DNA from: the human T2T-CHM13v2.0 reference genome, Homo sapiens
Strand: one strand, 5' to 3'
Assembly: GCF_009914755.1 (NCBI RefSeq)
Contig: NC_060939.1
DNA: 64,000 nt
A model generated the notes under the pieces. The model was not told the origin of the DNA, made no database searches, and saw only the letters and a list, made by a program, of their open reading frames with translations. Numbering within the stretch: the stretch's first letter is position 1; every line of letters begins with the position of its first letter. The translations under genes were made by a program, and so were the position numbers. Positions 1,711-26,380 of this stretch are shown here, in pieces.

Positions 1711-3636
1711 TTGGACTTGGGAAGAGGGAGGAAAAGAACACGCACAGGAAAGTCACAGTGTAAGCAACAGTATGGAGGTGGGAAAGTTCAGCTCATGGAT
1801 AGGAAAAATTGATCCAAGTTGGCAGGGCCCACAGGGAGATGTGGTGGGGTGGTGAGTGGCGGCCACATCAAAAGAACCTTGAATGCCAGGCTGAGGTGGG
1901 AGGCATTTCCTGTTGTGTGGAATGTGCCATGAGGTGGTGGGGAGGGTAACGTGATGAAAGGACATTTGGGAGGATGGATCTGGCATCAGTGATGGGTGGG
2001 GGTAAGGAGTGAACAAAGCTGGAGGCCAGGAAACCGGACACATGGCCCAGAGTTCAGGCATAGGCTGTTCAAAGGCAGTTTCCACACTGAGTTCCAATGT
2101 GGATCCAAGCATGCAGCGGATATATTTGGAAAAGCAAAAGCATTCCCTTCCCATTACCACACAGTTTCCCAGCTGAGTTCATCACCAGAGTCCTACACAT
2201 CAGACAGTCAACCTGCCCCAAACTCTGTCCCTAGAAGCTGTGGCCCAGAGGGAGCCCTTGTCCAGCTGTAGCCCGGGGACGCTGCAGCCTGAGCAGGACT
2301 GCACCTGTTCCCTCCCAGGAGCCTCATCTCTGTCCGGCCTGGCTTTGGCTTCAGATGCCCTCAGCTTTGGCTTCGAAATCTGTTGGGTCAGATTCACGAG
2401 AGCTCTGGCCTTCTTTGGGTTGGGAATTTTAAATAGTTTTTTCAAGCAGGCAGTAGATCAACTCTACTTGCTTACTTCTGGGTGCATCTCCTGTTCCCCG
2501 GCCCCAGATCTTCTTTTTCCTTGGTTTATCCTCTCATTGTGTTGCAGCACATCTTCCAGTGGCTTCCAGAGAAACAGTGAATGGAAGCCAAGCTTTCTGA
2601 CCCTCACATATTTTAGAATGTCATTGTTCTACCCCAATTCCTGATTACTAGTTTGGCTGGATGTAATGCTCTAATTTAAACATAACTTCTCTTCACATTG
2701 GGAAATATTGCTCTATTATTTTCTAGTTCCCAGTGTTGTTGGGAAGAAGTCAGTGTCATGCGGAGTCTTGGCTCTTTACATATGACCTGTCTTTTCTCTC
2801 TGGAAGATTTTAGGATTTTCTATCTTTGGGTTCTTGGAATTTCTCAGTGATGTACCTTGTTATAGGTCTTTCTACCTATACTGTGCTAGTCACTTGGTAG
2901 ACTCTTGAACTAGAAAATTATGTGCTTCTGTGGGGGGAAGCCACCAGCATGTTTGGGTCCTGGTTTGGGTCCCAATGGGGCACATGTGGGAAAGACCATG
3001 AATGCCCATGTCTCCGACTAGTTTCCCCATCAGAAGTGTTGTTGCACCAATCATCCTCCTCCATTAAAACTGGACAGACTAAGGGCCACTTTCCTAATGG
3101 ATGGGTCTTCTTGGTTCATCTCATGCTCCCAACAGAGCTCCCTCCCGGGGATGGGAACGCGCCATGCCAGGAGAGCCCTCTTGATCCAGCCTCCAGCCAA
3201 AGCCAGTCCCCCTGCCAAACAGGCCCTAGAGTTACACTGGAGGGTGACAGGCCTAACCTGGAAATTTCTTGCTGAAAATTGTCAGTTTCCCACACAAGTA
3301 CAGCCTGGCAGTTAATTCAAATTCAAACCAGAAGACTGCTGCTTCAGTCTCGACTGCTTGAAAATTAGGTTGTGTAGAGCTTTCATTTGCTGGAAATTGT
3401 GCAGCCAGACATTGTGCAGATTGACCCAGTAGCTACAGCAAGTACACACATAGGGCGCCAAGCAAGGACAAGTGTGCACATGTGCGCACGCACACACACA
3501 CACAGCAGAAAATCTAGAAATAAACTATTTTAATGTCAGCTGTCATGGAAGTTTTGTGTCATTTCCCCAAAAAAACACAAATTTTATTTTATGATTTAGT
3601 CTAGTATTTATTTAGAATTACTTAAGGAAAAGGAGA

Positions 3637-3930
3637 CGTGAGTGCAGTGGCTCATATCTGTAATCCTAGCACTTTGGGAGGCTGAGGCAGGAGGATCACT
3701 TGAGCCTGGGAGTTCAAGACCAGCCTGGGCAACATGATGAAACGCCATCTCTATAAAAAATATGAAAATTAGCCAGATGTGGTAGCATGTGCCTGTGGTC
3801 CCAGCTACCCAGGAGACTGAGGTGGGAGGATCCCTTGGGCCCGGGAGGCGGAGGTTGCAGTGAGCCAAGATCACATCACTGCATTGCAGCCTGGGTGACA
3901 GAGTGAGATCCCATCTCAAAAACAAAGAGA
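3637..3930 (+). mobile_element. Alu
   Basis: gtggctcatatctgtaatcctagcactttgggaggctgagg ... cagcctgggtgacagagtgagat followed by an A-rich tail. Confidence 0.95.
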
Positions 3931-4080
3931 AAGAAAGAAGAAGACAGAGAAAGAGAAGAGAAAAGAAAAAGAAGAGAGGAGAAAAGAAAGAAGAGAAAAG
4001 AGAGGAAAGAAGAGATAAGAGAGGAGAGAAAAGAGGGGAGGGGAGGGAAGGGGAGAGGGGAGGAGAGAAGGGGAAAGGAG
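3920..4080 (+). repeat. Purine-rich (GA) low-complexity tract derived from the Alu tail
   Basis: Almost entirely A/G for ~160 bp. Confidence 0.9.
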
Positions 4081-4084
4081 CAAT

Positions 4085-5960
<1,876 letters not shown>

Positions 5961-6329
5961 CTCCCTCAACTGTGACCGCCACCTTATAATGATGGTATTC
6001 TTACATTTCCCCACCTGTCCCTTGTGCCATTCTCATCATCATTTTACTTCCACACGTTATAAACCCCACAATGTTATTACTTTTGCCTCAGTCAATTATT
6101 TCTAGACATCAAAAAATGAGAAAATAGGATCTTTTCTATTTATCCATGTATTTATTATGTCAGTGGTCTTCATTCCTTTGTGTAGAACCAAATTTCTATC
6201 CAGTGTCATTTTTCTTCTGACCAAAGAACTGCTTTTAACACTTCACAGAGTGCAGGCCTGCTGGTGATTATCCTGGCTTTTGTCTGTGTGAAAAAGTCTT
6301 TATTTTGTCTTCATTAAATTTTTTAAAAA

Positions 6330-7440
<1,111 letters not shown>

Positions 7441-8147
7441 TAGTGTGGGACTGTGTTCCAGCACTAGTTAAGTTATTTGAAATAAGTTGGATCTACAAAG
7501 GTTTGCTTTCAATCTTTGTTAGGACAGTTTCAGAGAAGTCTTTACTCCAGTGCTCATTTAGCCCCACTATTAAGGCAATAGTTTTTTAAAGCTTCTCTTC
7601 CATTTCCTAAGTATTATGAGGTATTTTCATTCTGACTAGTGAGAATATGAATTCTCTCTAGCCTGTTGTGAGCTCTGGGGATTCTTCTGTCTGCTTTCTG
7701 GCAGTTCTTTCCCTGGGTACTTTCTTCTCACATATGTCCCTATCAGCCCTTTGCCAAAGGCTTGAGGGCATCTTCCATAGCTCTCCAGAGTTCACGCGCT
7801 CTCTTCTCCCACCTCCTCCCTGGTACTCTACCTCACAAATTCTACCGGCCTTGAAGATCTTCCCAAGCTCTGATCTCTGTCTCCTCAATCCACCAAGACC
7901 ACCGGACTTTGGATTCCCCTCCCTGTGTTGGAGCCTGTAATTGCTTCCGGCAGTAAACCGAGGACACTCTAGGGTTCACCTTCTTTTAGGGATCATAGTT
8001 CTGCTCGACCTGTTCTCCGATGTCTGAAAACTATTGTTTTATATTTTGTTCCATTTTTCTAGTTATTAAAGGTGGGAGGCAAATCTGGTCCCTGTTATCA
8101 GTCATGGCCACATGTAGAGGTTGCAGGATGTTGTTTACATCTGTATC

Positions 8148-8300
8148 TTTTTTTTTTTTTTTGAGACAGGATCTCACTCTGTCACCCCAAGTGGCACCAT
8201 CTCGGCTCACTGCCACCTCCACTTTGTGGCCTCAAATGATCCTCCCACCTCAGCTTCCCAAAGTGCTGGGATTACAGGTGTGAGCCACTGTGCCTGGCCT
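8148..8300 (-). mobile_element. Internally deleted Alu
   Basis: Poly-T + gagacaggatctcactctgtcacc joined to cccaaagtgctgggattacagg. Confidence 0.85.
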
Positions 8301-9334
8301 GAAACTGTATCTTTCTTATTACCAGAGAAGTTAAACATTTTTTCCTGTGTGTCAGCAGCATTTGTGTTTCTTTTTCTTTGAATTTTCATTTTTCCAGTTT
8401 GAACTTTCCATTTTTCTTAGAATTTTTGGTCTTTGTCTTCTCTACTTTTAGAATAGAATGAATATGATATTAATCATACTTCGAATTGTGGCCATGATGG
8501 AGTACCTGTATTGATGATGGTCTCCCAGCATAAACAACTACAAAGCTGGACAAAGTACATGAAGAAATTGTCTTCAGCCATTGGGCAATAGGCAGTTCCA
8601 GGTACAATCTGAGAGAAGGGAATCACATGAAGTTACTGCTACATTTTTCTGGTGGGGAAAGTTTCAAAACCCTCAATGACAGCACGAGGAAGCAGAGTCC
8701 AGGCAAAGGATCAGTCTTGTTTGGTGGAGGAAACGGAGACTGCTGCTCAGGGCTGCTAAAATGTGTGTGGCAGGGTATCAGAAAGGATGGAGTTGCAGAG
8801 AAGGAGCCCCAGAAATCTTATAGAGGTTGCTGCAGGTCCTTGGCCAAATCCCAAACTATGAATGTGTGGATTGAGACTCTGCAAGGCCTAGCACAGAACA
8901 GCCGATGGGGAGCTGAGAGCTAAACAGCGATTTCAGTGGTCACAGAGTGCTGGAAACACATCTGAATTCTGGCTCAGCCAGCATCTCCACTCTTGGAATC
9001 TCAGGACTTGATGAATATCCCAGACATTCACAGGAGGGCCTAGAAGGCCATGCCTTGGGATTAAGGAAGATTCTCTAGGAATAAGGTCAAAACTAAAAAC
9101 CAGCTCACGCTAACAAAACCTAAAATGTAGCCTTGACACACGTGATCAAGTTAACCCATCAGTAATTTAATTCCCTGCCAAAATAAAACTCAACACTGGA
9201 GTAGGATAACATAACCCACATCTCTACAATGAAGGTTCACAATGTCCAACAGCTCAAGAAATACTTAGAAGACATGAGAAAAAGTGAGAAAATATATCCT
9301 ACAATTAAGAGAAAACCAGTCAATACGAACTGAC

Positions 9335-10168
<834 letters not shown>

Positions 10169-10289
10169 GGCCCATAAATGGCTCACACATTGGAATTAGC
10201 AGGCAAGAGCTTTAAAGTAACTACATACATACATCAAAGATTTTAGAGAAATATCAACACCTGTGAAGATGGTGAAAAAAGAATTTAGA

Positions 10290-10412
10290 GAAATAATTTT
10301 TAGTATAAGTATGTCCTAAATATGCATGGTACATACTTACTAAAATATAGTTTATTTTTTAATCAGAAATCTAAATTTAACTGGGCATCCTATATTTTAT
10401 CTGGCATCTCTA
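10290..10412. mobile_element. MER53-like hAT MITE fragment
   Basis: tagtataagtatgtcc...catacttactaaaa...aaatttaactgggcatcctatattttatctggca. Confidence 0.6.
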
Positions 10413-10599
10413 CCCCAAAGCCAAGAAAGAGAGAATCCAGAGTCCTATCTTTTAGCAGGTGACCTAGCCTAGGACAGGGCCTGGCCAGGGGCAATTGTGC
10501 ATTGGATGGATTAGAGATGCCAGTCATTCAAAGGTTTGCCAGACCTGCATACAATCAACATTATTTTTATTTAATATTTTTGTCTAAAGCAACTTTAAA

Positions 10600-12450
<1,851 letters not shown>

Positions 12451-12499
12451 GTCAACTCATTTTTAAAACCTAAATAAATGTATTTAAAAAGGAAACTTT

Positions 12500-12760
12500 C
12501 GCTTTGGGAGGCCAAAGCGGGTGAATTGCTTGAGCCCAGGAGTTCAAGACCAGCCTGAGCAACATGGCGAAACTCTGTCTCTACAAAAATTACAAAAATA
12601 TCCAGGCATGGTGACGTGAGCCTATAGTTTCAGCTACTTGGGAAGTGAGGCAGGAGGATTGCTTGAGCCTGGGAGGTTGAGGCTGCCGTGAGCTGTGATC
12701 GCACCATTATACTCCAGCCTGGGAGACAGAGCAAAACCCTGCCTTAAATAAATAAATGAA
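12500..12760 (+). mobile_element. Alu (5' truncated)
   Basis: ctttgggaggccaaagcggg...cagcctgggagacagagc, then a taaa tail. Confidence 0.9.
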
Positions 12761-12779
12761 TAAAAGGAAATTTGTGATT

Positions 12780-12940
12780 AGTGGTTCTCAAAGTGTGGTC
12801 CCTGAGCCAGCAGCATCAGCATCCCCATCAGCTGAGAACTTGTTAGAAATGCAGATTCTCAGGCGCCACCCCAGACCTCCTGAATCAGAACCTCTGAGGC
12901 GTGGGTTCAGCGACCTGTGGTTTAACAAGCCCTCCCGGTG
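12780..12940. mobile_element. MER5A
   Basis: gtggttctcaaagtgtggtcc...cagcagcatcagcat...ttgttagaaatgcagattctcagg...tttaacaagccctcc. Confidence 0.8.
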
Positions 12941-14063
12941 AGAATCGGTCTCATTCACTACAGATAGAAGGAAATGGTAAAAATCAATTCATCCCCGTAT
13001 CGCCTAAAATCCTCCTGTGGGCCCCAGGTTGGCACAGCACACTTTTGGGCAGGAGCCCCACTCACAGAGGCTGTGACAAGAATGCTCCTGCCCCTGGGGT
13101 TGTGCAGTGACAGCTCACACAGCTCCACGTGGCGGTTCTGAGTTTGGGAAGCGCTGATGTAGTCCTACTACAGCCCTTCCTGCCCTTCACTGGACTGAGA
13201 AAATCCAGGCTCTGAGGAGGGAGAGACTTGCCCAAGGTCACCCAGCAACATGGTCAGTCTCCTTTCCCAGGGCCCTCACAATGCGTGGCCTGTTTAAAGC
13301 CTGCCTCTATTCACTGCTGAGTGAAAAATCCAGCTCCAAAACAGAATATGGGGAAGGATACTATCTTGTGCAGCTTATGTTTATAGCTGCAGATACGTGG
13401 GAAAAAAAGTCAGAAAATACTGTTGAAGCAGTTACTTAGGGAGAAAAGGTGTTTGCTGGTCTTTTGTGTTTTTAACTTTTCTATATTTCATAATTTTTAT
13501 CACAATAATGTTTAGTTACATAATCAAAATGTATTAAATGTTAAAAATTGACATGAAGCCTGATCCAGCCACGGCCTATTGTTGGCAGAGTCAGGAAGCC
13601 TTCCAGATAGAGCAGCCCCGCACCTGCCCCAGGTCACACCCTGGGCCTGGGCACATGCTAGGTCCTCTGTCTGGACACCCTCACCCTGTGGTGGCCTCCA
13701 CGTCCGTACCCACCAGCACCTCCTGTGGGCGAGGCCCTACATTACATCCAGCCCTGGGCACCCACTAGCCCAGAGGGCACCTCATGGTCTGAGAGCCCGC
13801 CTGTCTGTCTCTAAAGAGAGGAAAACTCCTTGGGACATGTGTTCCACTTGACCCATCACCCCTGGCCTGGTACAGAAAGGTAGACAGTGGGTATTTGGTG
13901 AATAAATGAATGGATGATTAGAATGAATTCCCAAAATGGCAATTTCCTGAGGCCCTTCTCCAGCTGGCCCAGGTGGAACCAGTTCCACTTTTCACAGGAA
14001 AGCCAGGTGGGAGGAGTGGGGCAGGTGTGTGTGAGGGGCCAGATTCTTGAGGGCTGCATGGAC

Positions 14064-16107
14064 ATGGGGCTTTGGCGGGTCTGGGGGCGGCAGTGCTTCT
14101 GTGGGAGCCTCAGGGAGGGCTCATCCTTGGAATCCACCAGGGTATCCTGGTACCCCCAGCTGCTGCGTGGCGTGAGAAGTCCTGGCTGGTGGGGACACAC
14201 AGGTACTTGTTTGGATTGGCCACCTGGTCCAGCCCAAGGAGCTGTGCCTCCAGCCCCTTGGGGAAAAACTCACTTCTGATGTGTGACAACAGCTGCAGGC
14301 AAGGGGAGGGAGAGGTGTGCTGGGCCTCGGCCTTAGAAGCCAGAAGCCCTACCTTGGTCTATATGGGAAAGGCATGCGGCCTCAGCTAGATCTAGGGTCC
14401 TGGGTTATGGTCAGAACCCTCCCTTATGGACTCAGTGACTTGGGCTGACCCCGCCCCTCCCTGAGCCTCATCAGTGAAACCAGGATGGGGCCAGGGCTCT
14501 CGACACCTCCCAGCTCAGACCTCTGACTTTCTCCCAGGAGGGCAGGAGATCAGACAGAGGTGACCCGGGCTCTCCTGTTTACCTCAACCTCCTTGTGAAG
14601 CCTCCCTCTTTCTGCCTGTGAGGTGGGTGGGGCCGGAAGGAGGGGCATTCACCTGTAGGCCTCTGACTTCTCTGCCCAGGTGTACCTGGAGAGCCTGGTC
14701 TATACCCGGTGCTCTGCTACACCCCATGGCCTGGCCATGACCTCCCTGCCTCCAGAGCAGCCCTGGCCCAGGGAAGAAGCTGTCTCTGCATCGAATGATA
14801 GGTGGAAAATGGAAGTGGGGATGATAGCTCTGAAAAGGAGTCAAGGAGGAGGTGCCTTCCCAAGGATGCTGAGGGTTTTTCCAGAATGGAACTTGACTGG
14901 TGCGGGCAAACATCAGGAGGTGGGAAGGGTGGCTCCCTCTGTGGGAGCCAGGGTGACTTGCCTGGATCGAACAGTGGTAGGCAGTGGGTAGGGCAGGCAG
15001 AGCTGGGGTGCCCAGAGCCTGGGGTCCCTGTCCTTGCAGAGGACTGGATTGCAAAACAAGTGTCCCCTGCCTTCTGGCTGGGGGACATCCTCTACTTCCA
15101 AGCCCAGACATACACCTGCTGCCACAAGCCCCTGAGGTTCTTCAGAGGACCAATGGGCAGCCACACCCATGCTGGGCCAGCCTGCTGGGCCCACCTGCAC
15201 CATGGTCAGAGCCCATGACTGAGGGGACTCTCTGGGGACAATGGGGGCAGTCTCATGCTGCCCTCTTACAGGTGGATCAGTCCCTGGGATCTGGTGTTGG
15301 GCCGGGGTAGGCTGAGTATGTTCTCTGATGGGGTGCCTTGTGGACAGCAGGTAGAGCAACTTCTTCTTGGCTTTCTTGGACCTCAGGACATAGCTGAACA
15401 CTGCGCTTTACCCTGGATGCCTTCAGATTCTCAGGGGACCCTGGGAAGGAAGAGGGGCTGCCCCTGCAAAGGGCCAGGGCCCTGGCCCATGGTTGCTTCC
15501 CCCAGCAGGTACCTCCTCTCCAGATTGACATCACCTGATTCCTGAAGGCCTGAGCTACAGACCAGAGCCCCAACACCCTCACCAAGGCCTGTTCTTAATC
15601 AGAGCAGCTAGTATATGATTCCGGAGCTGAAGTGGGCAGAGAGAGAATGCAGGGCTCTGTAAGACTTCTTGGCTCCCTGCTGCGGTGGGCCCTGTAGAAG
15701 GCCCCCCAGAAATCTGCAGCTGCTGTAAGTCACTGGGAGGAAGCTGCAGCAGACATGTGTTTCCCAGCCTGGTAGATGGAGAAGGGTTTCCGGGTCTCCG
15801 AGTGGGAGGCCCAAACGTGGCCTTGGTTGTAGCAGTGCAGGAATTCTAGCCAGCTCTGGGGCCCAGGGCAAGTCATTTAACCTCTCAGAACCCCACTCCT
15901 GGTCACCATGTGGCTCTTGTGTGGTTGTAAAGAACACCCCTGGCCACTTATGTCCCATCAGTGGAAGCCTAGCATGGGTGGAGACCCCCGAGACTGAACT
16001 CAGTGGCAGGATCCAGCCTTTCCAGCTCTCCTACATAGAGCCCAGAGCCAGCAGGGTGGGTTTCCTGAAGAAGCAGGCACTCCTGTGGGCTGGAGAGCAT
16101 GATTAAA
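14064..16107 (+). pseudogene. Unprocessed, heavily decayed zona pellucida ZP3 (ZPC)-family pseudogene
   Basis: Manual translation allowing frameshifts. Ex1 ~14064-14298: MGL..GLGAAVLLW; HRYLFG/GHLVQPKEL; LLMCDNS.Q. Ex2/3 14680-14801: VYLESLVY; YTPWPGHD; KKLSLHRMI. Ex4 15040-~15204: EDWIAKQVSPAFWLGDILYFQAQTYTCCHKPLRFF. Ex5 ~15331-15450: GCLVDSR*..AF..LRFTLDAFRFSGD. Ex6 15524-~15610: IDIT*FLKA*ATDQSPNTLTKACS*. Ex7 ~15686-15825: W.PVEGPPEICSCC; RPKR. Possible ex8 ~15960-16107 ending at ATTAAA. Motif order and several intron phases match ZP3. Confidence 0.9.
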
Positions 16108-16256
16108 GGTCCCTTTGGGAAGGTGGAAGAGGCTGCGGTCAGTGGAGGCCATAATGAGGCAGAGCTTGGGCAGAAGGGGCATGATTGGGGGATCTGAGAC
16201 CCAATAGAGACTGGACTGAGGACACTGTGCCACTCAGGTGGTGGAAACTGAGCTAG

Positions 16257-16546
<290 letters not shown>

Positions 16547-17662
16547 TGACACACATGCTGGCAACTTGCCCCTAGACAGACATGTTTCTGGACTTGGTTC
16601 CATTTGTTCTGATGGGCTCCTCTCTCTCAATGACCGCACGTTATATTATGTGGCCATTCTTACACATTTCTGTATAGACCTGAGGGTTAGTGTATTAATG
16701 TCAAAGTTCTACTGGTTTTTCGAGGCTGGGTGGAATGTTTGGGTTAATTTAGGAGTGGGCATCTTGACAATATAGGCTTTTCCTCCGGGAATGGTGATTC
16801 TGGGACGCAGGTTTTGCACATCCTGGTTTATTGCTTGGCTCGCTGCCACAGAGGGATGGCACTGCTCCACATGCCATGCCCAAGAGATGTCCCACCTTAT
16901 CTTTCTAAATCAAGCTGAATGTTCTCAGCTGACAGGATATCCTATCAGTGCTGCGGGGACTCACACCTTCCAAACTGAGATGAAGTGAGGTGGAGACTAT
17001 GGAGCAGATCCGTGCTGACTGCATTCGCCCTTCCTGACCCACACTGCTGCTGGCCGGGGCTATGTCTGAGCCATCAGAGGGCATTGATTTGGGGACGGGG
17101 CGGGGGGCGGTCCTGGAGAGATGCCCCTCACCTCCCTCAGCTCCTCCTGTCCACCTAACACTTGGCCACCAAGGTCCCTGACTTCCAGGCCCCAGTCACC
17201 ACTAATGGGGTGCTGCATGGGAACAAAGTGTAGGCCCAGAACCTGGAGCTCAGGTCACTCCTCCTTCCATTCGAAGCCTCTGCCCCTCCCAGGTGATTCC
17301 ACCCTCATTCCTCCATGGGCCAAATATCCTAAACAAAGGCCTGGACAGGGGTCTTTATCCGAGTACTCAGAAAACACACACGGAAATGCTTTGCATGCCC
17401 CCTGTGGCCTGCCAGGGGTAAGAGCCTGCCCGTCAAAATGCACAGTCCTGGTTCTTGCAGGGAGGTGAGGAGCGGAGGAAGAAAAGATCCATCTCATTCT
17501 TTCAGCAGGATCCTAAACTTGGGAAAGCCAGATGCAGTACATTTCTTAATCCTGATACTTTTATAACTGGTTATAGCGGGGTCACATGCGCAACTGTTTT
17601 CCAACATCTTTCAACGGGCCACATAACATCCTGTAACTTCTTTTTTTAATTTTTATTTTGTA

Positions 17663-18095
<433 letters not shown>

Positions 18096-18171
18096 TAGAC
18101 TGCCATTGGCAAATGCCAGTTGATTATCCACCCACATTTATGTTAATGGATTTCCCATGTTTTATTTGTCT

Positions 18172-18385
18172 AGACCAGGCTTTCTCCACAGCAGCACTGT
18201 TGATGTTTAGGGCTGGACAGTTCTCTGTTCTGGAGCTGTTTGCGCCTCGCAGGATGTTTAGCAGCATCCCCAGCCTCCGCCTGCCACATGCCAGCAGCAC
18301 TCCTCAGTGTGACAGCCAAAGTGATTTCAGATACTGTCAAATATCCCCAGGGCGGCAAAATCACCTCCAGTTGAGAACTGCTGAC
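18172..18385. mobile_element. MER20
   Basis: aggatgtttagcagcatccccagcctc...gccagcagcac...gtgacagccaaa...tgtcaaatatccccagggcggcaaaatcacc...ttgagaac. Confidence 0.8.
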
Positions 18386-18516
18386 CTAAAACCCTCTGGA
18401 ACAATGTTAGATCATGGTAATGATAGCGCATACTGCTCCTGACCTTAATGGGAATACCTCTAGCATCAAAGTATAGTAGTACCTGTATACTACTGTCTGG
18501 GCTGTTATTAGTACAC

Positions 18517-18874
18517 TGTATTAGTCCATTCTCATGCTGCTATGAAGAAATACCCAAGACTGGGTAATTTATAAATAAAAGAGGTTTAAGTTGACTCACA
18601 GTTCTGCATGGCCGGGGAGGCCTCAGGAAACTTACAATTATGGCAGAAGACACCTCTTCACAGGGCAGCAGGAGAGAGAAGGAGAGCCGAGCAAAGGGGA
18701 AAGCCTGTAATAAAATCATCAGATCTGGTGAGAACTCACTTACTATCATGAGAACAGCATGGGAGAAACCACCCCCATGATTCAATTATCTCCACCTGGT
18801 CCCACCCTTGACATGTGGGGATTATTGCAATTCAAGGTGAGATTTGGATGGGGACACAGAACCAAGCCATATCA
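18517..18874. mobile_element. MSTA-type MaLR solo LTR
   Basis: tgtattagtccattctcatgctgctatgaagaaatacccaagactggg...ggggacacagaaccaagccatatca. Confidence 0.85.
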
Positions 18875-18914
18875 TATCCTTTATATTAGCATACTGTATC
18901 AAAGTATAATTTTC

Positions 18915-19735
<821 letters not shown>

Positions 19736-19861
19736 CCTATTGGGAAATAAAACTGTCATCTTTGGGAGTTATCTTTTCTACTGTACTGAAATCTGTAAGT
19801 TAACATATATACATATTCTCACATATATTCATAACATATTCTCTAGTATATTTCCCTACAT

Positions 19862-20045
19862 TAGTGGTTTTCAAACCATGGTCTCAAATTGGAAGCACCA
19901 GCGTCACCTGGGAACACAGACATGCAATGCTTAGGCCCCACCTCAGTCCTATTGAGTTAGAAACTCTGGTGTGGGGCCCAGCAGCCCATTTCACAAGCCT
20001 TGCAAGTGATTAGGATGCACTCTAATGTTTGAGAAACACTGCTCT
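19862..20045. mobile_element. MER5A-like
   Basis: tagtggttttcaaa...cagcgtcacctggga...agaaactctggtgtggggcccagca...tttgagaaacactgc. Confidence 0.65.
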
Positions 20046-20324
20046 AAATAGTCAATCTTTAATAGTAAAACAAGTATCTATGAAACAATGCTCAGTATGA
20101 CATTAAAAGGGCGCACCACCCACCTTTTAACTTTATTTCTGAATTTAAATATTTTGTCTGTCTAATGTTAAATTTGCTGTTTTGTTTTTCAAATACTCTT
20201 AAGATAAGACAGTTTTCATCTGTTCCTAATTTTCTTTTTAAATAAAAAATGGTCCCAAAACTATCCATTTTTCTCTTCTTTAACCTACTGACAGCATGAA
20301 ATAAAAGTTGAACCATTCCTACAT

Positions 20325-20905
20325 CTTTTTTTTTTTTTCTCACCTTGTTGCTCAAGTTGACTGAAATGCAGTGGTGCAATCTCGGCTCACTGCAACCCCC
20401 ACCTCCCGGGTTCAAGCGATTCTTGTGACTCAGTCTCCTGAGGCTGGGATTACAGGCACCCAGCACCATGCCCAGCTAATTTGTATTTATTTATTTATTT
20501 ACAGTAGAGACGGGTTTTGCCATGTTGGCCACACTGGTCTCCAACTCCTGACCTCAGGTGATCTGCCTGCCTCGGCCTCCCAAAGTGCTAGGATTACAGG
20601 CATGAGCCACCGCACCCAGCTTTTTTTCTTTTCCTTTTTTTGTTTTGAGATGGTCTCATTCTGTTGCTCAGGCTGGATGGAGTACAGTGGCGCCATCATG
20701 GCTCACTGCAGCCTCCACCTCCCATGCTCAAGAGATCCTCCCATCTCAGCCTCTTAGGTAGATGGGATGACACGTGTGCACCAGCACAAGCAGCTAATTT
20801 TTTGTAGAGACTGGGGTCTCCCTATGTTGCCCAAGCTGGTCTAGAACTCCTGGGCTCAAGCGATCCACTGGCCTTGGCCTCCCAAAGTGCTATGATTACA
20901 GGTCT
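20325..20905 (-). mobile_element. Two tandem antisense Alus
   Basis: Canonical reverse-complement Alu motifs. Confidence 0.9.
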
Positions 20906-21179
20906 TATGTTCTTAAAATTTTTCTTTGACATGGTATAGGATAGTCTAGTAACTTAACACACTGTTGCTTTCAAGAGGATAGTGCTTATGATTTGTAAAA
21001 TAACTCTTCAGAAATGAGTTCAATTTTACCATGAATTGGGACACTTTCTATTTCTATTCTATAGAGCAGTTTACTTGTCATGAGGTCTGTCTTTTGAAAA
21101 CTTGAAAGCCTGCAACAATAAAACCAGCTGCACCTGGTGCATGGGATAGGCATGGAATTGAGGAGAGAGCTCAAACTAT

Positions 21180-21490
21180 GGTCAGCCTTCTGTATCCTCG
21201 GGTTCTGGGTCCTTGGATTTAACCAACTGTGCATCAAAAATATTTGGAAAAAGTAAAACAATAAAAAAACACAAAAATTTAAAAATACTTTATATCAGCT
21301 ATTTACAAAGCATTTATGTTGTATTAGGTATTATAGCAATCTAGAGATGATTTAAAGTATACGGAAGGATGTGCATAGGTTATATGCAAATACTATGCCA
21401 CATTATATCAGGAACTTGAGCATCTGTGAATTTTGGTATCTCTGGGGTCCTGGAACCAGTATCTTGAGGTTACTAAGCGACGACTGTATT
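21180..21490. mobile_element. MER2 (Tigger-family DNA transposon)
   Basis: gtcagccttctgtatcc...aatctagagatgatttaaagtatacggaaggatgtgcataggttatatgcaaatactatgcc...gactgta. Confidence 0.8.
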
Positions 21491-22344
21491 CAATTTCTTC
21501 TTTGGTTATTAGTTTATTCTTTAATGTATTTTTGTTGTTGTTTTGTCTTTTTGTTTTTGCCTCTTCAAGTCAACGTCGGAAACTTAGTTGTTCTAGACTA
21601 CCCATTAGCTCAAAGCTACCAGTAATCAGACTACCACTGCAATCTAAGCAACCGATTTTTTTTTTACCCATCAGACTGGCAAAAATTAAGATAAGATCTA
21701 TTGATGTTGAAGCTGTGGGGAGTTTTCCTGAGCATGTTAATTATGACAGCCCTTTTTACTAGGCACCTAGACGATTCATCAAAATGAAATAAAATACCCA
21801 TGCACTTGAAGAAGTTACCTGGTTATTTCCTTATCTGGGTGCTGGTTATGTGAGGTCTACAGTTGATGAAAACTTATTAAGCTTTATATTTCTAATAGGT
21901 ACAATTTTCTGTATGTGTAATATATTTGAAAAGTTTTTAAAATGTTTTTTGCCACAGCCCGCAGCTGTGTATAATGCTATTCGCTTAACAGTGGAAAACA
22001 TGGCAATGACCTGAATCTCCCTGGCTCCCGGGATCCTACCCCCTTAAGTTAACGAAAATAAAAGTAAAAGAAATAACTTCCACTGTCTTTCGTAATGCCT
22101 TAAATCCGTCCTCAGTTAAACCGGCGGTTGGCGCTGGTTTTTTCCAGGGCAGGATTCTGGGAGACGGAGGAGCAGACGCCAGCATTTCGCCCCCGGCACC
22201 TCCAGCGGGCTGCGGTCCGCTCCCGGCCTCACTCGAGCAGGCCCCGCCCCGCCAGAGGCCGTTAGTCCAAGTCACGTGATCGTCGACTCAGCTGACCTGG
22301 CGGGACCGGAAAAAGAAATTCCCGGGCCCTGGCTTCCTCGCGCG

Positions 22345-25439
<3,095 letters not shown>

Positions 25440-26380
25440 GTAAGTATGAGGCCAGCCAGGGTCCGGGCTCATCCTAGAAGGTGCACGCAGCACACAAAGT
25501 GCGTGGAGAGTCCAGGGAGACAATTTAACCGCAGTCACATACCGAGCAGCCGCAGAGCCGGGACGTGGCCCTCGGTCTCCTGACCCCGCGCGCTCTGTGA
25601 TGTGTACGTACAGGATCAGACCTTGCCCTTTCCTCCTGGCTGACCCTTCCTTAGTCCCCCGTGCCCCATGTGTGAGCACCCAGCTCACTCTCATTCCTCC
25701 CTCTCCAAAGCGTGGTCCCTGGCAGCACGAGTGGCAGAAGGGACAGCAGAGACTGTGGACCCCTCAGCTGCACCTAAGACCTCTGTGTGGTCTAGCCGTG
25801 TGTGCTGGGGGAGGCTTTTGGCCACCATTTCCCCCTCTGTAAATGAGACCGATACCTGTGGCATGGAGGACAGGAGGCTGGTGTGAGTGCCAAGCACTTG
25901 GAGCAGGGCCCTGAGTGAGCATGGACATGGGAACAGGGGTGTTTCTCGACTTTGTGCACCTTGGGGATGGGAGTGGGGCTCCCTGCATGGGTTGACAAGG
26001 CATTGCTTTCCCCCACCCCACCTCTGTCCCAGCCCTGCAAGTCCAGTCCTTGGGGGTCTAGGAAGGAAGAAGCCCCTGGCTGTTTGGCCTCAGGCTGGTG
26101 CCTGGCCCTCTCTGGCTCTGAGTTCCTGGGAAAGTCAGCACCCAAGGCATGCCCTCAAGTTTAGCACCTTGACAAGAAGGGCGGGGACACTGGGATCAGG
26201 CCCAACTCTTTGGCCCCAAATCCCACGGCCCCAGCTGGAGGATGAGGAGACGCTGGGCTTGGATGGGGAAATCAGGGGTGTAAAGGGGCCTGCTCACCCC
26301 TCAGCTTGGCTCAAAGGCTCAAGGCGTCAAAGGCTCAGCCTGCCACTCAGGAAGGAGCCCTGGCCAAGCCAGACACTCAC

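What the first reader, a model, noticed from the sequence alone, without database searches (positions are those of the whole stretch)
14064..16107. Fossil second ZP3-type egg-coat gene in apparently intergenic DNA
Seen: the six-frame ORFs look like noise, but stitching frames on the + strand gives ZP3 motifs in the correct order. These are a signal-peptide-like MGL..GLGAAVLLW; ZP-N remnants (HRYLFG/GHLVQPKEL, LLMCDNS.Q, VYLESLVY); the IHP-like end KKLSLHRMI; ZP-C remnants (EDW...F.LGDIL.FQA...H.PLRFF, GCLVD, LRFTLDAFRFSGD, IDIT*FLK, P..L.KACS); the ZP3-specific W.PVEG..ICSCC cluster; and a furin site RPKR (15807-15818). Acceptors at 14679, 15039 and 15523 sit at ZP3 intron positions and phases, so this is an intron-containing copy, not a retrocopy. 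Stops at 15352, 15391, 15536, 15551 and 15596 plus several frameshifts show it is long dead. Known: functional human ZP3 is on chr7, and non-placental vertebrates carry extra ZP3 paralogs. Inference: this is the remnant of a ZP3 paralog lost in the placental or primate lineage. I do not know of an annotation for it here.
Basis: partly seen in the sequence, partly recalled or inferred. Interest (0 to 1): 0.93.

Follow-up and report, generated by a model that had tools for sequence, protein, structure and literature searches.

The report
Decayed relic of lost ZP3 paralogue
This stretch is the broken remnant of a second ZP3-type egg-coat gene that placental mammals no longer use, later copied six times along human chromosome 15; it cannot make a protein and matters for gene-family history and annotation, not for present-day function.

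Summary
Nine ZP3-family proteins (human, turtle, tuatara, alligator, chicken, pigeon, lizard, shark) were searched against the whole 64-kb window. All 27 matches with E<0.01 fall at 15000-15800 on the + strand, in ZP3 order (exons 4-7); a reversed-sequence decoy gives none. Exon 1 is weakly supported. Exons 2/3, the furin site and the signal peptide are not shown. Three acceptors and two donor positions sit at ZP3 intron positions and phases, so this is an intron-bearing ancient paralogue, not a retrocopy.

First, the window copy is one of six chr15 copies, 7-10% diverged from each other (one pair 0.2%). They lie inside a ≥23-kb segmental duplication of the COMMD4 upstream region. The likely original sits 7.5 kb upstream of the real COMMD4 (15q24), in a block that carries ZP3 and ZP3L1 in chicken. 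Several lesions are shared by all six copies, so the gene died before the duplications. Second, the human genome holds another intron-bearing ZP3 relic, RefSeq ZP3P2 at 7q33.

The subfamily (ZP3-1a/1b or ZP3-2) could not be resolved. None of the six chr15 copies is annotated in RefSeq. Verdict: a real, ordinary unitary-pseudogene relic, a new member of a known kind.

The parts
2517..25587 (+). Segmental-duplication block that carries the relic. It is collinear with the region upstream of, and the 5' part of, the real COMMD4 (chr15:73181496-73209558).
   Evidence: megablast gives 8 collinear blocks of 84-94% identity, 7 of them 89-94%. LOC112268145 exons 22392-25439 fall in the COMMD4-like part.
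13636..13740 (+). Possible further upstream piece resembling the long N-terminal extension of sauropsid ZP3. Unproven.
   Evidence: Second-best hit in the window for a sauropsid N-terminal HMM: 7.5 bits, against 9.1 bits for an unrelated place. tblastn E 0.2-2.5. Readable in 5 of 6 copies. The spacing to exon 1 is about 360 nt too long.
14096..14298 (+). Exon 1 remnant (first half of ZP-N), read in three frame segments: 14096-14215, 14215-14274 and 14273-14298. GC stands where the donor GT would be (14299-14300). An ATG at 14064 lies upstream in another frame.
   Evidence: The exon-1 HMM's top hit of the whole window is 14215-14277, and 14153-14218 abuts it in order. Per-copy translations are; the sequence is.
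14680..14800 (+). Short exon-like block between AG (14678-79) and GT (14801-02). I infer it to be a fusion of the start of exon 2 and the end of exon 3 after an internal deletion. It is 121 nt, against 119+104 nt in ZP3.
   Evidence: Splice dinucleotides and the phase-1 junction into exon 4 are read. HMM support is absent. Five of 6 copies carry one more base here.
15039..15218 (+). Exon 4 remnant (start of ZP-C), the best-preserved part. Acceptor AG is at 15037-38, phase 1 as in ZP3. One extra base at 15144 shifts the frame. CT stands at the donor position (15219-20).
   Evidence: 45% identity to human ZP3 aa 176-213, rising to 50% for the consensus of copies with a shifted-frame continuation. 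The best PDB hit is chicken ZP3 3nk3 (E 0.022 and 0.015). The best non-chr15 hit in the human genome is ZP3 exon 4 (E 0.021).
15333..15451 (+). Exon 5 remnant. The acceptor is lost (GG at 15331-32). There are stops at 15352 and 15391, and a 1-base frameshift near 15398.
   Evidence: tblastn hits 15331-15387 and 15398-15445 with 6 of 8 non-human family queries for the first part (the four sauropsid queries P0126, P0115, P0157, P0240 and shark P0020 at 15331-15387/15378, chicken P0168 as part of one HSP 15356-15595) and all 8 for the second. Per-copy reading.
15524..15611 (+). Exon 6 remnant. Acceptor AG is at 15522-23, phase 0 as in ZP3. A TGA at 15536 replaces a conserved Cys codon in all six copies. 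The TGA at 15551 and TAA at 15596 are private to the window copy.
   Evidence: HMM hit 15524-15601.
15667..15800 (+). Exon 7 remnant with the ZP3-type Cys cluster (15691-15750). The 3' limit is uncertain.
   Evidence: 58% identity over 19 alignment columns (17 residues of human ZP3), joint E 4e-5. Found by 8 of 9 family queries (not by shark P0020). HMM hit 15691-15750. No PDB ZP3 hit for this piece alone.
15807..15818 (+). Unproven.
   Evidence: It lies in a different frame from the Cys cluster and overlaps an alternative reading in that frame. The site is deleted or changed in 4 of 6 copies.
13940..14532 (.). RefSeq 'H3K27ac-H3K4me1 hESC enhancer' feature lying over the exon 1 remnant.
   Evidence: Annotation table. 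Similar features lie on the relic in 2 other copies.

Best explanation
Window 14096-15800 (+) is a non-functional, intron-bearing relic (unitary-type pseudogene) of an ancient ZP3-family egg-coat gene, distinct from the working ZP3 on chr7.

Shown:
- Collinear ZP3 homology across exons 4-7, and more weakly exon 1.
- Conserved intron positions and phases.
- Multiple disabling lesions.
- Six copies on chr15.
- The window copy lies in a duplicated block of the COMMD4 upstream region.

Inferred history:
1. The gene lived next to COMMD4-NEIL1-MAN2C1, the block that holds ZP3 and ZP3L1 in chicken.
2. It lost function in an ancestor of placentals. The lesions already present before any duplication include loss of most of exons 2-3, frameshifts in exons 1, 4 and 5, and a Cys codon turned to TGA in exon 6.
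3. Roughly 25-45 million years ago the dead gene was carried along when the COMMD4-upstream segment spread with the GOLGA6-associated low-copy repeats of 15q24-q25. That produced five old lineages and one very recent pair.
4. Each copy has since gathered private lesions.

It does nothing as a gene today. It most likely represents one of the two ZP3-1 paralogues (ZP3-1a or ZP3-1b) that the literature says placentals lost, and ZP3P2 at 7q33 would be the other. That assignment is the weakest step.
For: Homology:
- 27 of 27 significant HSPs from 9 queries lie in one collinear + strand block; the decoy gives 0.
- the family HMM gives four in-order hits in the window, and the same four in the copy beside COMMD4.
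- the reverse searches point to ZP3 exon 4 and to chicken ZP3.

Gene structure:
- AG at 15037-38 with phase 1, AG at 15522-23 with phase 0, AG at 14678-79 with phase 0, and GT at 14801-02. These match the ZP3 exon 4, 6 and 2 starts and the exon 3 end as rebuilt.
- The introns are only about 60-380 nt.

Ancient paralogue, not a copy of ZP3:
- 41% identity to placental and to sauropsid ZP3 over about 200 columns, and 33% to shark.

Death before duplication:
- The TGA at 15536 is in 6 of 6 copies.
- The frame change at 15144 and the one near 15398 are in 6 of 6.
- The same short exon 2/3 block is in 6 of 6.

Duplication:
- One search finds five more copies.
- One search gives K2P distances of 0.069-0.099, with one pair at 0.002.
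- One search shows the ≥23-kb collinear block.
- a GOLGA6-family gene or pseudogene lies within about 35 kb of 6 of 6 copies. COMMD4 or an annotated COMMD4-derived gene lies about 7 kb downstream in 4 of 6.

Synteny and literature:
- A chicken chromosome-10 interval lists NEIL1, ZP3, ZP3L1, COMMD4, MAN2C1, SIN3A and CSPG4 (PMC10976558, one table passage).
- Placentals lost two of three ZP3-1 genes and ZP3-2 (PMC8005149, passages).
Against: - Exons 2, 3 and 8, the EHP/TM region and the furin site are not demonstrable.
- Pfam ZP models do not reach threshold on any piece.
- A turtle-ZP3 scan of the whole human genome at E<=1 lists ZP3, POMZP3, ZP3P1, ZP3P2 and a chr1 fragment, but none of the chr15 copies. 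The chr15 relic is therefore far weaker than the annotated ones.
- The tree position is unresolved. The branch is long (2.3-2.4). In one tree it is sister to placentals at SH-aLRT 92, but it sits in a polytomy. An AU test does not reject placing it outside all amniote ZP3 (p 0.49). Synapomorphy counts are too small to use.
- I obtained no monotreme, marsupial, amphibian or ZP3-2 sequences, so ZP3-2 is not excluded.
- The chicken synteny rests on an unordered gene list for an interval of about 1 Mb. It is not adjacency.
- The ages rest on recalled primate divergence figures and ignore gene conversion.
Confidence: 0.88

Rival explanations
1. The relic descends from the ZP3-2 (ZP3.2) subfamily, not from ZP3-1a or ZP3-1b. 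It would then be the human counterpart of the ZP3.2 pseudogenes reported in panda, cat and opossum.
For: Feng et al. 2018 (PMC6262864, passages) found ZP3.2 pseudogenes in two placentals and a marsupial by tBLASTn, so ZP3.2 relics do survive in placental genomes. My AU test does not reject a position outside the amniote ZP3 clade (p 0.49). No ZP3.2 sequence was available for comparison.
Against: The relic is more like every one of 51 amniote ZP3 proteins (37.6-43.5%) than any of 6 shark ZP3 proteins (32.8-34.3%). A lineage that split before sharks and amniotes should not show that difference. The relic lies in the block that holds ZP3 and ZP3L1 in chicken. All three trees put it inside the amniote clade.
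Confidence: 0.25
2. It is a recent copy or a retrocopy of the working ZP3 gene, like POMZP3 or ZP3P1, and not an ancient paralogue.
For: The human genome does hold such copies. ZP3P1 (chr5) is intronless and groups inside placental ZP3 (99*). A chr1 fragment is 82% identical to ZP3 across two exon junctions. POMZP3 exons are found at 46-80% identity to the turtle query, the same figures as ZP3's own exons.
Against: The relic has its own short introns at ZP3 positions. Its identity to human ZP3 is only 45% in the best exon. It is as close to sauropsid ZP3 as to placental ZP3, unlike ZP3P1 (53% against 40%).
Confidence: 0.02
3. The resemblance is chance similarity produced by stitching frames in GC-rich DNA.
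For: Individual pieces are short. Pfam finds nothing. The Atlas search finds nothing.
Against: 27 of 27 significant HSPs fall in one collinear block, against 0 in the decoy. The reverse hits go to ZP3 and to chicken ZP3. Similarity rises when private changes are removed by taking the majority of the copies. Splice sites and phases coincide with ZP3.
Confidence: 0.01
4. The DNA has been taken over for another use, for example as an enhancer or as part of LINC02259. Its survival would then not be purely neutral.
For: RefSeq hESC enhancer features overlap the relic in 3 of 6 copies. The relic lies in an intron of LINC02259 on the other strand.
Against: The marked parts differ between copies (exon 1 in the window, exons 3-4 and exons 4-6 in the others). 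The copies differ by 7-10% across relic and flanks alike, with no sign of extra conservation. I ran no functional test.
Confidence: 0.07

Closest known systems
ZP3P2 (RefSeq 'ZP3 pseudogene 2', chr7:137793337-137793863, 7q33)
   Same: It is an intron-bearing, stop-ridden relic of a ZP3-type gene that is not the working ZP3. It falls in the same unresolved amniote ZP3 polytomy as the chr15 relic.
   Different: It is much better preserved: E 1.7e-26 with turtle ZP3, exons 1-7 recognisable over 5.1 kb, and 48% identity to turtle over 270 columns. It is single copy, lies next to CHRM2 and is annotated. It is only 32% identical to the chr15 relic over 176 columns, so it is a different gene.
ZPAXP (human ZPAX unitary pseudogene, chr2)
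   Same: It is an egg-coat ZP gene lost in mammals that survives as a decayed, intron-bearing relic in the human genome. Sources: RefSeq table; Goudet 2008 as cited in PMC8005149 and PMC3434135 (passages).
   Different: It belongs to a different ZP subfamily, is annotated, and was not seen here to be multiplied by segmental duplication.
ZP3.2 pseudogenes of panda, cat and opossum (Feng et al. 2018, PMC6262864)
   Same: They are relics of a lost ZP3 paralogue detected by tBLASTn with stop codons (passages).
   Different: They come from other species. The main-text passages I saw name no human relic. Table S3 and Fig. S7 could not be seen. It is unknown whether they are the same locus.
ZP3P1 (chr5) and the chr1:237679879-237679980 fragment
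   Same: They are ZP3-derived dead sequences in the human genome.
   Different: They are intronless retrocopies of the placental ZP3 lineage. The chr15 relic keeps introns and is an older paralogue.
POMZP3 (chr7)
   Same: It is ZP3 sequence multiplied by segmental duplication.
   Different: It is a recent partial copy of the working ZP3, fused to POM121 and still annotated as coding. The chr15 copies were already dead when duplicated.

Membership tests
ZP3 (ZPC) subfamily of egg-coat ZP-module genes | ZP-C half collinear with ZP3 proteins | tested here: met
   Exons 4-7 are hit in order by 9 of 9 family queries. 27 of 27 HSPs with E<0.01 lie in one block and the decoy gives 0. The family HMM agrees.
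ZP3 (ZPC) subfamily of egg-coat ZP-module genes | ZP-N half | tested here: inconclusive
   The exon-1 HMM top hit of the window is at 14215-14277 with an abutting in-order hit, but it scores only 6.3 bits against 5.6 for the next place. Exon 2 is not detectable.
ZP3 (ZPC) subfamily of egg-coat ZP-module genes | ZP3-type Cys cluster after ZP-C | tested here: met
   15691-15747 is 58% identical over 19 alignment columns (17 residues of human ZP3), with joint E 4e-5. It is found by 8 of 9 queries (not by shark P0020).
ZP3 (ZPC) subfamily of egg-coat ZP-module genes | Intron positions and phases of ZP3 | tested here: met
   The starts of exons 2, 4 and 6 and the ends of exons 1 and 3 coincide with ZP3 boundaries and phases as rebuilt. 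The acceptor of exon 5 and the donors of exons 4-6 are mutated.
ZP3 (ZPC) subfamily of egg-coat ZP-module genes | Furin-type cleavage site, external hydrophobic patch and membrane anchor (exons 7-8) | tested here: inconclusive
   No HMM or tblastn hit lies beyond the Cys cluster. RPKR is in another frame and is not kept in 4 of 6 copies.
ZP3 (ZPC) subfamily of egg-coat ZP-module genes | Pfam Zona_pellucida (PF00100) at the gathering score | tested here: not met
   0 ZP hits for 7 pieces. 0 of 31 genome matches are on chr15, while ZP3 exon 4 scores 43.5 bits. This is expected for short decayed exons. It bars calling the relic a ZP-domain protein, not calling it a ZP3 relic.
Functional gene | Open spliced reading frame | tested here: not met
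   Stops and frameshifts are present in every copy. A TGA in exon 6 and three frame changes are shared by 6 of 6.
ZP3-1a / ZP3-1b (ZP3.1 subfamily paralogues lost in placentals) | Groups with amniote ZP3.1 and apart from ZP3-2 | tested here: inconclusive
   The relic is inside the amniote clade in 3 of 3 trees and closer to amniotes than to sharks. The AU test gives p 0.49 for the outside position. No ZP3-2, monotreme or marsupial sequences were in hand.
ZP3-1a / ZP3-1b (ZP3.1 subfamily paralogues lost in placentals) | Conserved synteny with a living ZP3 paralogue | tested here: inconclusive
   The presumed ancestral copy lies 7.5 kb upstream of COMMD4. A chicken chromosome-10 interval lists ZP3, ZP3L1, COMMD4, NEIL1 and MAN2C1 together (PMC10976558). 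Gene order and other species are not testable with these tools.
Processed pseudogene of ZP3 | No introns; exon junctions fused | tested here: not met
   The homologous blocks are separated by 60-380 nt at ZP3 intron positions.
15q24-q25 low-copy repeat / GOLGA6-associated segmental duplication | Several long copies of about 90% or more identity on the same chromosome arm beside GOLGA6-family genes | tested here: met
   There are six copies, 89-92% identical over 3.2 kb. A ≥23-kb collinear block links the window to the COMMD4 locus. GOLGA6-family genes lie within about 35 kb of 6 of 6 copies.

The most novel reading that the evidence does not exclude
The copy beside COMMD4 marks the original amniote ZP3 locus, the one still occupied by ZP3 and ZP3L1 in birds. 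On this reading the ZP3 that all placental fertilisation work studies (7q11.23, 'ZP3-1c') is a relocated therian duplicate. The resident gene died and left this relic, and ZP3P2 at 7q33 is the relic of the other lost ZP3-1 gene. Together the two relics would account for both ZP3-1 losses and let the time of each loss be read from shared lesions across mammals.
Probability: 0.4. Interest if true: 0.6.

Novelty: new member of a known kind. Interest (0 to 1): 0.4.

Why it matters
- **A missing relic.** It supplies a physical remnant for a gene loss known so far mainly from the absence of the gene in placentals. It also points to the likely ancestral position of ZP3-type genes, next to COMMD4-NEIL1.
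- **A dating tool.** The shared lesions (the exon 6 TGA, the exon 2/3 deletion, three frameshifts) are ready-made markers. Aligning other mammals at this locus would date the loss.
- **Annotation.** Six pseudogene copies are absent from RefSeq, and ZP3P2 is annotated over only about a tenth of its recognisable span.
- **A marker for repeat history.** Because the relic was dead before it was copied, it is a neutral marker for dating the 15q24-q25 low-copy repeats that mediate the 15q24 microdeletion (PMC3261729 and PMC7336734, seen in a search listing only).
- **No present function.** It has no bearing on present-day human fertility.

Tried and rejected
- **Pfam on seven stop-free pieces, and PF00100 over the genome.** Neither sees the relic; the pieces are too short and decayed.
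- **First tblastn of window pieces against the ZP3 locus.** It was swamped by Alu matches. I repeated it on the repeat-free stretch 12830-16330.
- **ESM Atlas with the exon 4 piece.** The best score was 0.75, to an unrelated bacterial cluster, so it was no use.
- **PDB search with the exon 7 piece.** No ZP3 hit.
- **Alignment A4 of turtle proteins with 30 relic pieces.** MAFFT stacked the fragments wrongly, so I discarded it and did not use it as a query.
- **The three protein word-searches.**
  - They gave placental, shark and sauropsid ZP3 only. The 120-row listings filled up before any monotreme, marsupial, amphibian or ZP3-2 protein appeared, so the subfamily could not be settled.
  - Unnamed candidates were left out by the tool (25, 6135 and 6384).
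- **Trees, the AU test and the derived-state count.**
  - All are inconclusive for the exact position.
  - In one search, tests A and C did not finish. Only A was rerun; test C was dropped.
- **Internal duplication of exon 1 (13560-13900 against 14000-14320).** None found.
- **A second tandem relic.** None was found in the 64-kb window or in the 30 kb upstream of COMMD4 at HMM sensitivity.
- **Literature.**
  - Searches.
  - Passages read: PMC6262864, PMC8005149, PMC3434135, PMC13361971, PMC7555810, PMC5922311, PMC10976558.
  - None mentions a human ZP3-type relic on chromosome 15 or ZP3 synteny with COMMD4/NEIL1 as such.
  - The papers were seen as listings only.
  - Supplements are closed. 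Feng 2018 Table S3 and Fig. S7, and Fig. S1 of PMC8005149, may bear on whether a human relic was already listed.
  - GENCODE and HGNC could not be consulted.
- **Correction.** My note says the family HMM had 35 sequences. The script used 34.
Full report
**What is there.** The stretch 12827-16332 of the window carries no masked repeat. It lies in an intron of LINC02259, on the other strand. Its six-frame ORFs are short; the longest on the + strand is 138 aa, 14802-15218. The five stops, the RPKR and the three AG acceptors are all confirmed.

**Is it more than chance?**
- I rebuilt human ZP3 from the reference: chr7, 8 exons, all 7 introns GT-AG, 424 aa.
- I searched it against the whole 64-kb window on both strands.
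  - Only three HSPs have E<1. All are on the + strand and in ZP3 order: aa 176-213 at 15030-15143 (45% identity), aa 260-304 at 15398-15604, and aa 311-327 at 15691-15747.
  - The fourth-best hit has E 1.6.
- Eight further family members give the same places: two turtles, tuatara, alligator, chicken ZP3-like, pigeon ZP3, a lizard and a shark.
- Over the nine queries, 27 of 27 HSPs with E<0.01 lie in 15000-15800 on the + strand. The reversed window gives 0 of 173 HSPs below 0.01.
- A 34-sequence family HMM, run on six-frame translations, hits 15033-15143, 15359-15442, 15524-15601 and 15691-15750 at profile positions 202-238, 274-300, 304-329 and 337-354.
- The reverse searches agree.
  - The 59-aa exon 4 piece finds, outside chr15, ZP3 exon 4 as its best place in the human genome (E 0.021).
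  - It finds chicken ZP3 (3nk3) as its best solved structure (E 0.022; as a six-copy profile, 0.015).
- Against this, generic Pfam models see nothing. The exon 7 piece alone finds no ZP3 in the PDB, and the Atlas gives nothing.

**Anatomy.**
- Exon 4 starts after AG at 15037-38 in phase 1, and exon 6 after AG at 15522-23 in phase 0. Both match ZP3.
- The block 14680-14800 starts after AG in phase 0 and ends before GT in phase 1. Those are the phases of the exon 2 start and the exon 3 end. It is 121 nt where ZP3 has 119+104, so I infer an internal deletion that fused the two. HMMs give it no support.
- Exon 1 has modest support.
  - The exon-1 HMM's best hit in the whole window is 14215-14277. 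An in-order hit at 14153-14218 abuts it in another frame.
  - The exon ends at 14298 with GC at the donor position.
- Nothing is found beyond the Cys cluster, so exon 8, the hydrophobic patch and the anchor are not seen.
- RPKR lies in a different frame from the Cys cluster and is not kept in 4 of 6 copies.
- A possible extra upstream piece at 13636-13740 resembles the long N-terminus of sauropsid ZP3. It ranks only second in the window, at 7.5 bits against 9.1 for an unrelated place.

**Six copies.**
- The exon 4 piece finds five more places on chr15 at 83-90% amino-acid identity: 71.97, 73.20, 73.62, 75.81 and 76.61 Mb.
- Over 3.2 kb the copies are 89-92% identical.
- K2P distances are 0.069-0.099, except the 75.81/76.61 Mb pair at 0.002.
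- Window 2517-25587 is collinear with chr15:73181496-73209558, in eight blocks of 84-94% identity. That region is the upstream region and 5' part of the real COMMD4.
- LOC112268145 in the window is therefore a COMMD4-derived model.
- The 73.20-Mb copy lies 7.5 kb upstream of COMMD4, which is followed by NEIL1, MAN2C1 and SIN3A. The other copies lie beside COMMD4P1, COMMD4P2 and GOLGA6-family genes.
- I take the 73.20-Mb copy as the original. This is an inference.

**Dead before copying.**
- All six copies share the TGA at 15536 in place of a conserved Cys codon. They also share the extra base at 15144, the frame change near 15398, the short exon 2/3 block and the lost exon 5 acceptor.
- By contrast, the stops at 15391 and 15551 and the 1-base deletion that makes the TAA at 15596 are private to the window copy. 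The stop at 15352 is in 2 of 6 copies.
- The in-frame KKLSLHRMI reading depends on a private 1-base deletion.
- Taking the majority of the copies raises similarity to ZP3: exon 4 goes from 45% to 50%, and a shifted-frame continuation appears. True homology would behave this way.
- By my recalled figures for human-macaque (about 6-7%) and human-marmoset (about 11-12%) neutral divergence, 7-10% puts the old duplications roughly 25-45 million years ago. Gene conversion is ignored in that estimate.

**Which gene was it?**
- The literature gives the frame.
  - Feng et al. 2018 split ZP3 into ZP3.1, ZP3.2 and ZP3.3. They report ZP3.2 pseudogenes in panda, cat and opossum (PMC6262864, passages).
  - The 2021 review PMC8005149 (passages) states that early mammals had ZP3-1a, ZP3-1b and ZP3-2. 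It adds that a further duplication in the therian ancestor gave ZP3-1c, which is the placental 'ZP3', and that placentals lost the rest.
- A chicken chromosome-10 interval lists NEIL1, ZP3, ZP3L1, COMMD4, MAN2C1, SIN3A and CSPG4 together (PMC10976558, one table passage). The relic therefore lies in the block that still holds ZP3 genes in birds.
- My three protein searches returned only placental, shark and sauropsid proteins.
- With those sequences, the relic (majority sequence, about 200 columns) compares as follows.
  - It is 41.3% identical to placentals.
  - It is 39.2-41.5% identical to the five sauropsid groups.
  - It is 33.4% identical to sharks.
- It sits inside the amniote clade in three trees, on a branch of 2.3-2.4 changes per site.
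- An AU test does not reject a place outside amniotes (p 0.49). Derived-state counts are too few to use.
- The subfamily therefore stays open. I put ZP3-1a or ZP3-1b at about 0.55 and ZP3-2 at about 0.25.

**A second relic changes the novelty.**
- A turtle-ZP3 scan of the whole human genome lists ZP3, POMZP3, ZP3P1, ZP3P2 and a chr1 fragment, and no chr15 copy.
- ZP3P2 turns out to be an intron-bearing relic.
  - Its pieces for exons 1-7 span chr7:137790544-137795667, about ten times its RefSeq span.
  - It is closer to turtle ZP3 (48% over 270 columns) than to placental ZP3 (39.6%).
  - It is only 32% identical to the chr15 relic, so it is a different lost paralogue.
- ZP3P1 is an intronless retrocopy inside the placental clade (99*). 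The chr1 fragment is also a retrocopy.
- The kind of object is therefore already known and partly annotated. The chr15 relic is a further, more decayed and unannotated member.

**Verdict.**
- This is a real, non-functional, ancient ZP3-family pseudogene relic, multiplied by the 15q24-q25 segmental duplications.
- In the searches named under Tried and rejected I found no paper describing it.
- Closed supplements, GENCODE and HGNC could not be checked.

Noticed in passing
L015 (chr7:137787000-137796999), pieces at chr7:137790544-137795667: RefSeq ZP3P2 (527 bases) is the middle of a larger intron-bearing ZP3-like relic with recognisable exons 1-7. It is closer to turtle ZP3 than to placental ZP3 and lies next to CHRM2. 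It looks like the relic of another lost ZP3 paralogue.
   Followed up: partly
L016, chr1:237679879-237679980 (-): A fragment 82% identical to human ZP3 aa 276-309 runs across two exon junctions. It is an unannotated retrocopy fragment, about 380 kb from ZP4.
   Followed up: partly
window 22392-25439 (LOC112268145 exons): The 5' exons of this 'uncharacterized protein-coding' model lie in sequence 90-94% identical to the 5' part of COMMD4. The model is therefore COMMD4-derived.
   Followed up: partly
L002 (chr15:75812352-75815528) and L003 (chr15:76606135-76609311): These two copies differ by only K2P 0.002 over 3.2 kb. They are in inverted orientation about 0.79 Mb apart, so they form a recent inverted duplication that could mediate rearrangement.
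   Followed up: no
L005, at window-equivalent 14822: The copy beside COMMD4 carries a 74-base tandem duplication in the intron after the exon 2/3 remnant. The other five copies lack it.
   Followed up: no
window 13940-14532; chr15:75813872-75814372; chr15:73622106-73622667: RefSeq hESC enhancer features lie on the relic in 3 of 6 copies, but over different exons.
   Followed up: no
proteins P0021 and P0207: Two vertebrate ZP3 proteins, one shark-like and one bird-like, are filed in public databases under Salmonella enterica and Lysinibacillus fusiformis. Contaminated bacterial assemblies are the likely cause.
   Followed up: no
proteins P0005 and P0087: Myotis davidii has a 276-aa 'ZP3-like' protein that is 89% identical over 197 aa to its own ZP3. 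It is a recent partial duplicate, unrelated to the chr15 relic.
   Followed up: yes
sauropsid rows of the trees: Turtles, squamates and archosaurs each have two or more ZP3 paralogues that cluster by lineage, not across lineages. This could reflect lineage-specific duplication or gene conversion between linked copies.
   Followed up: no
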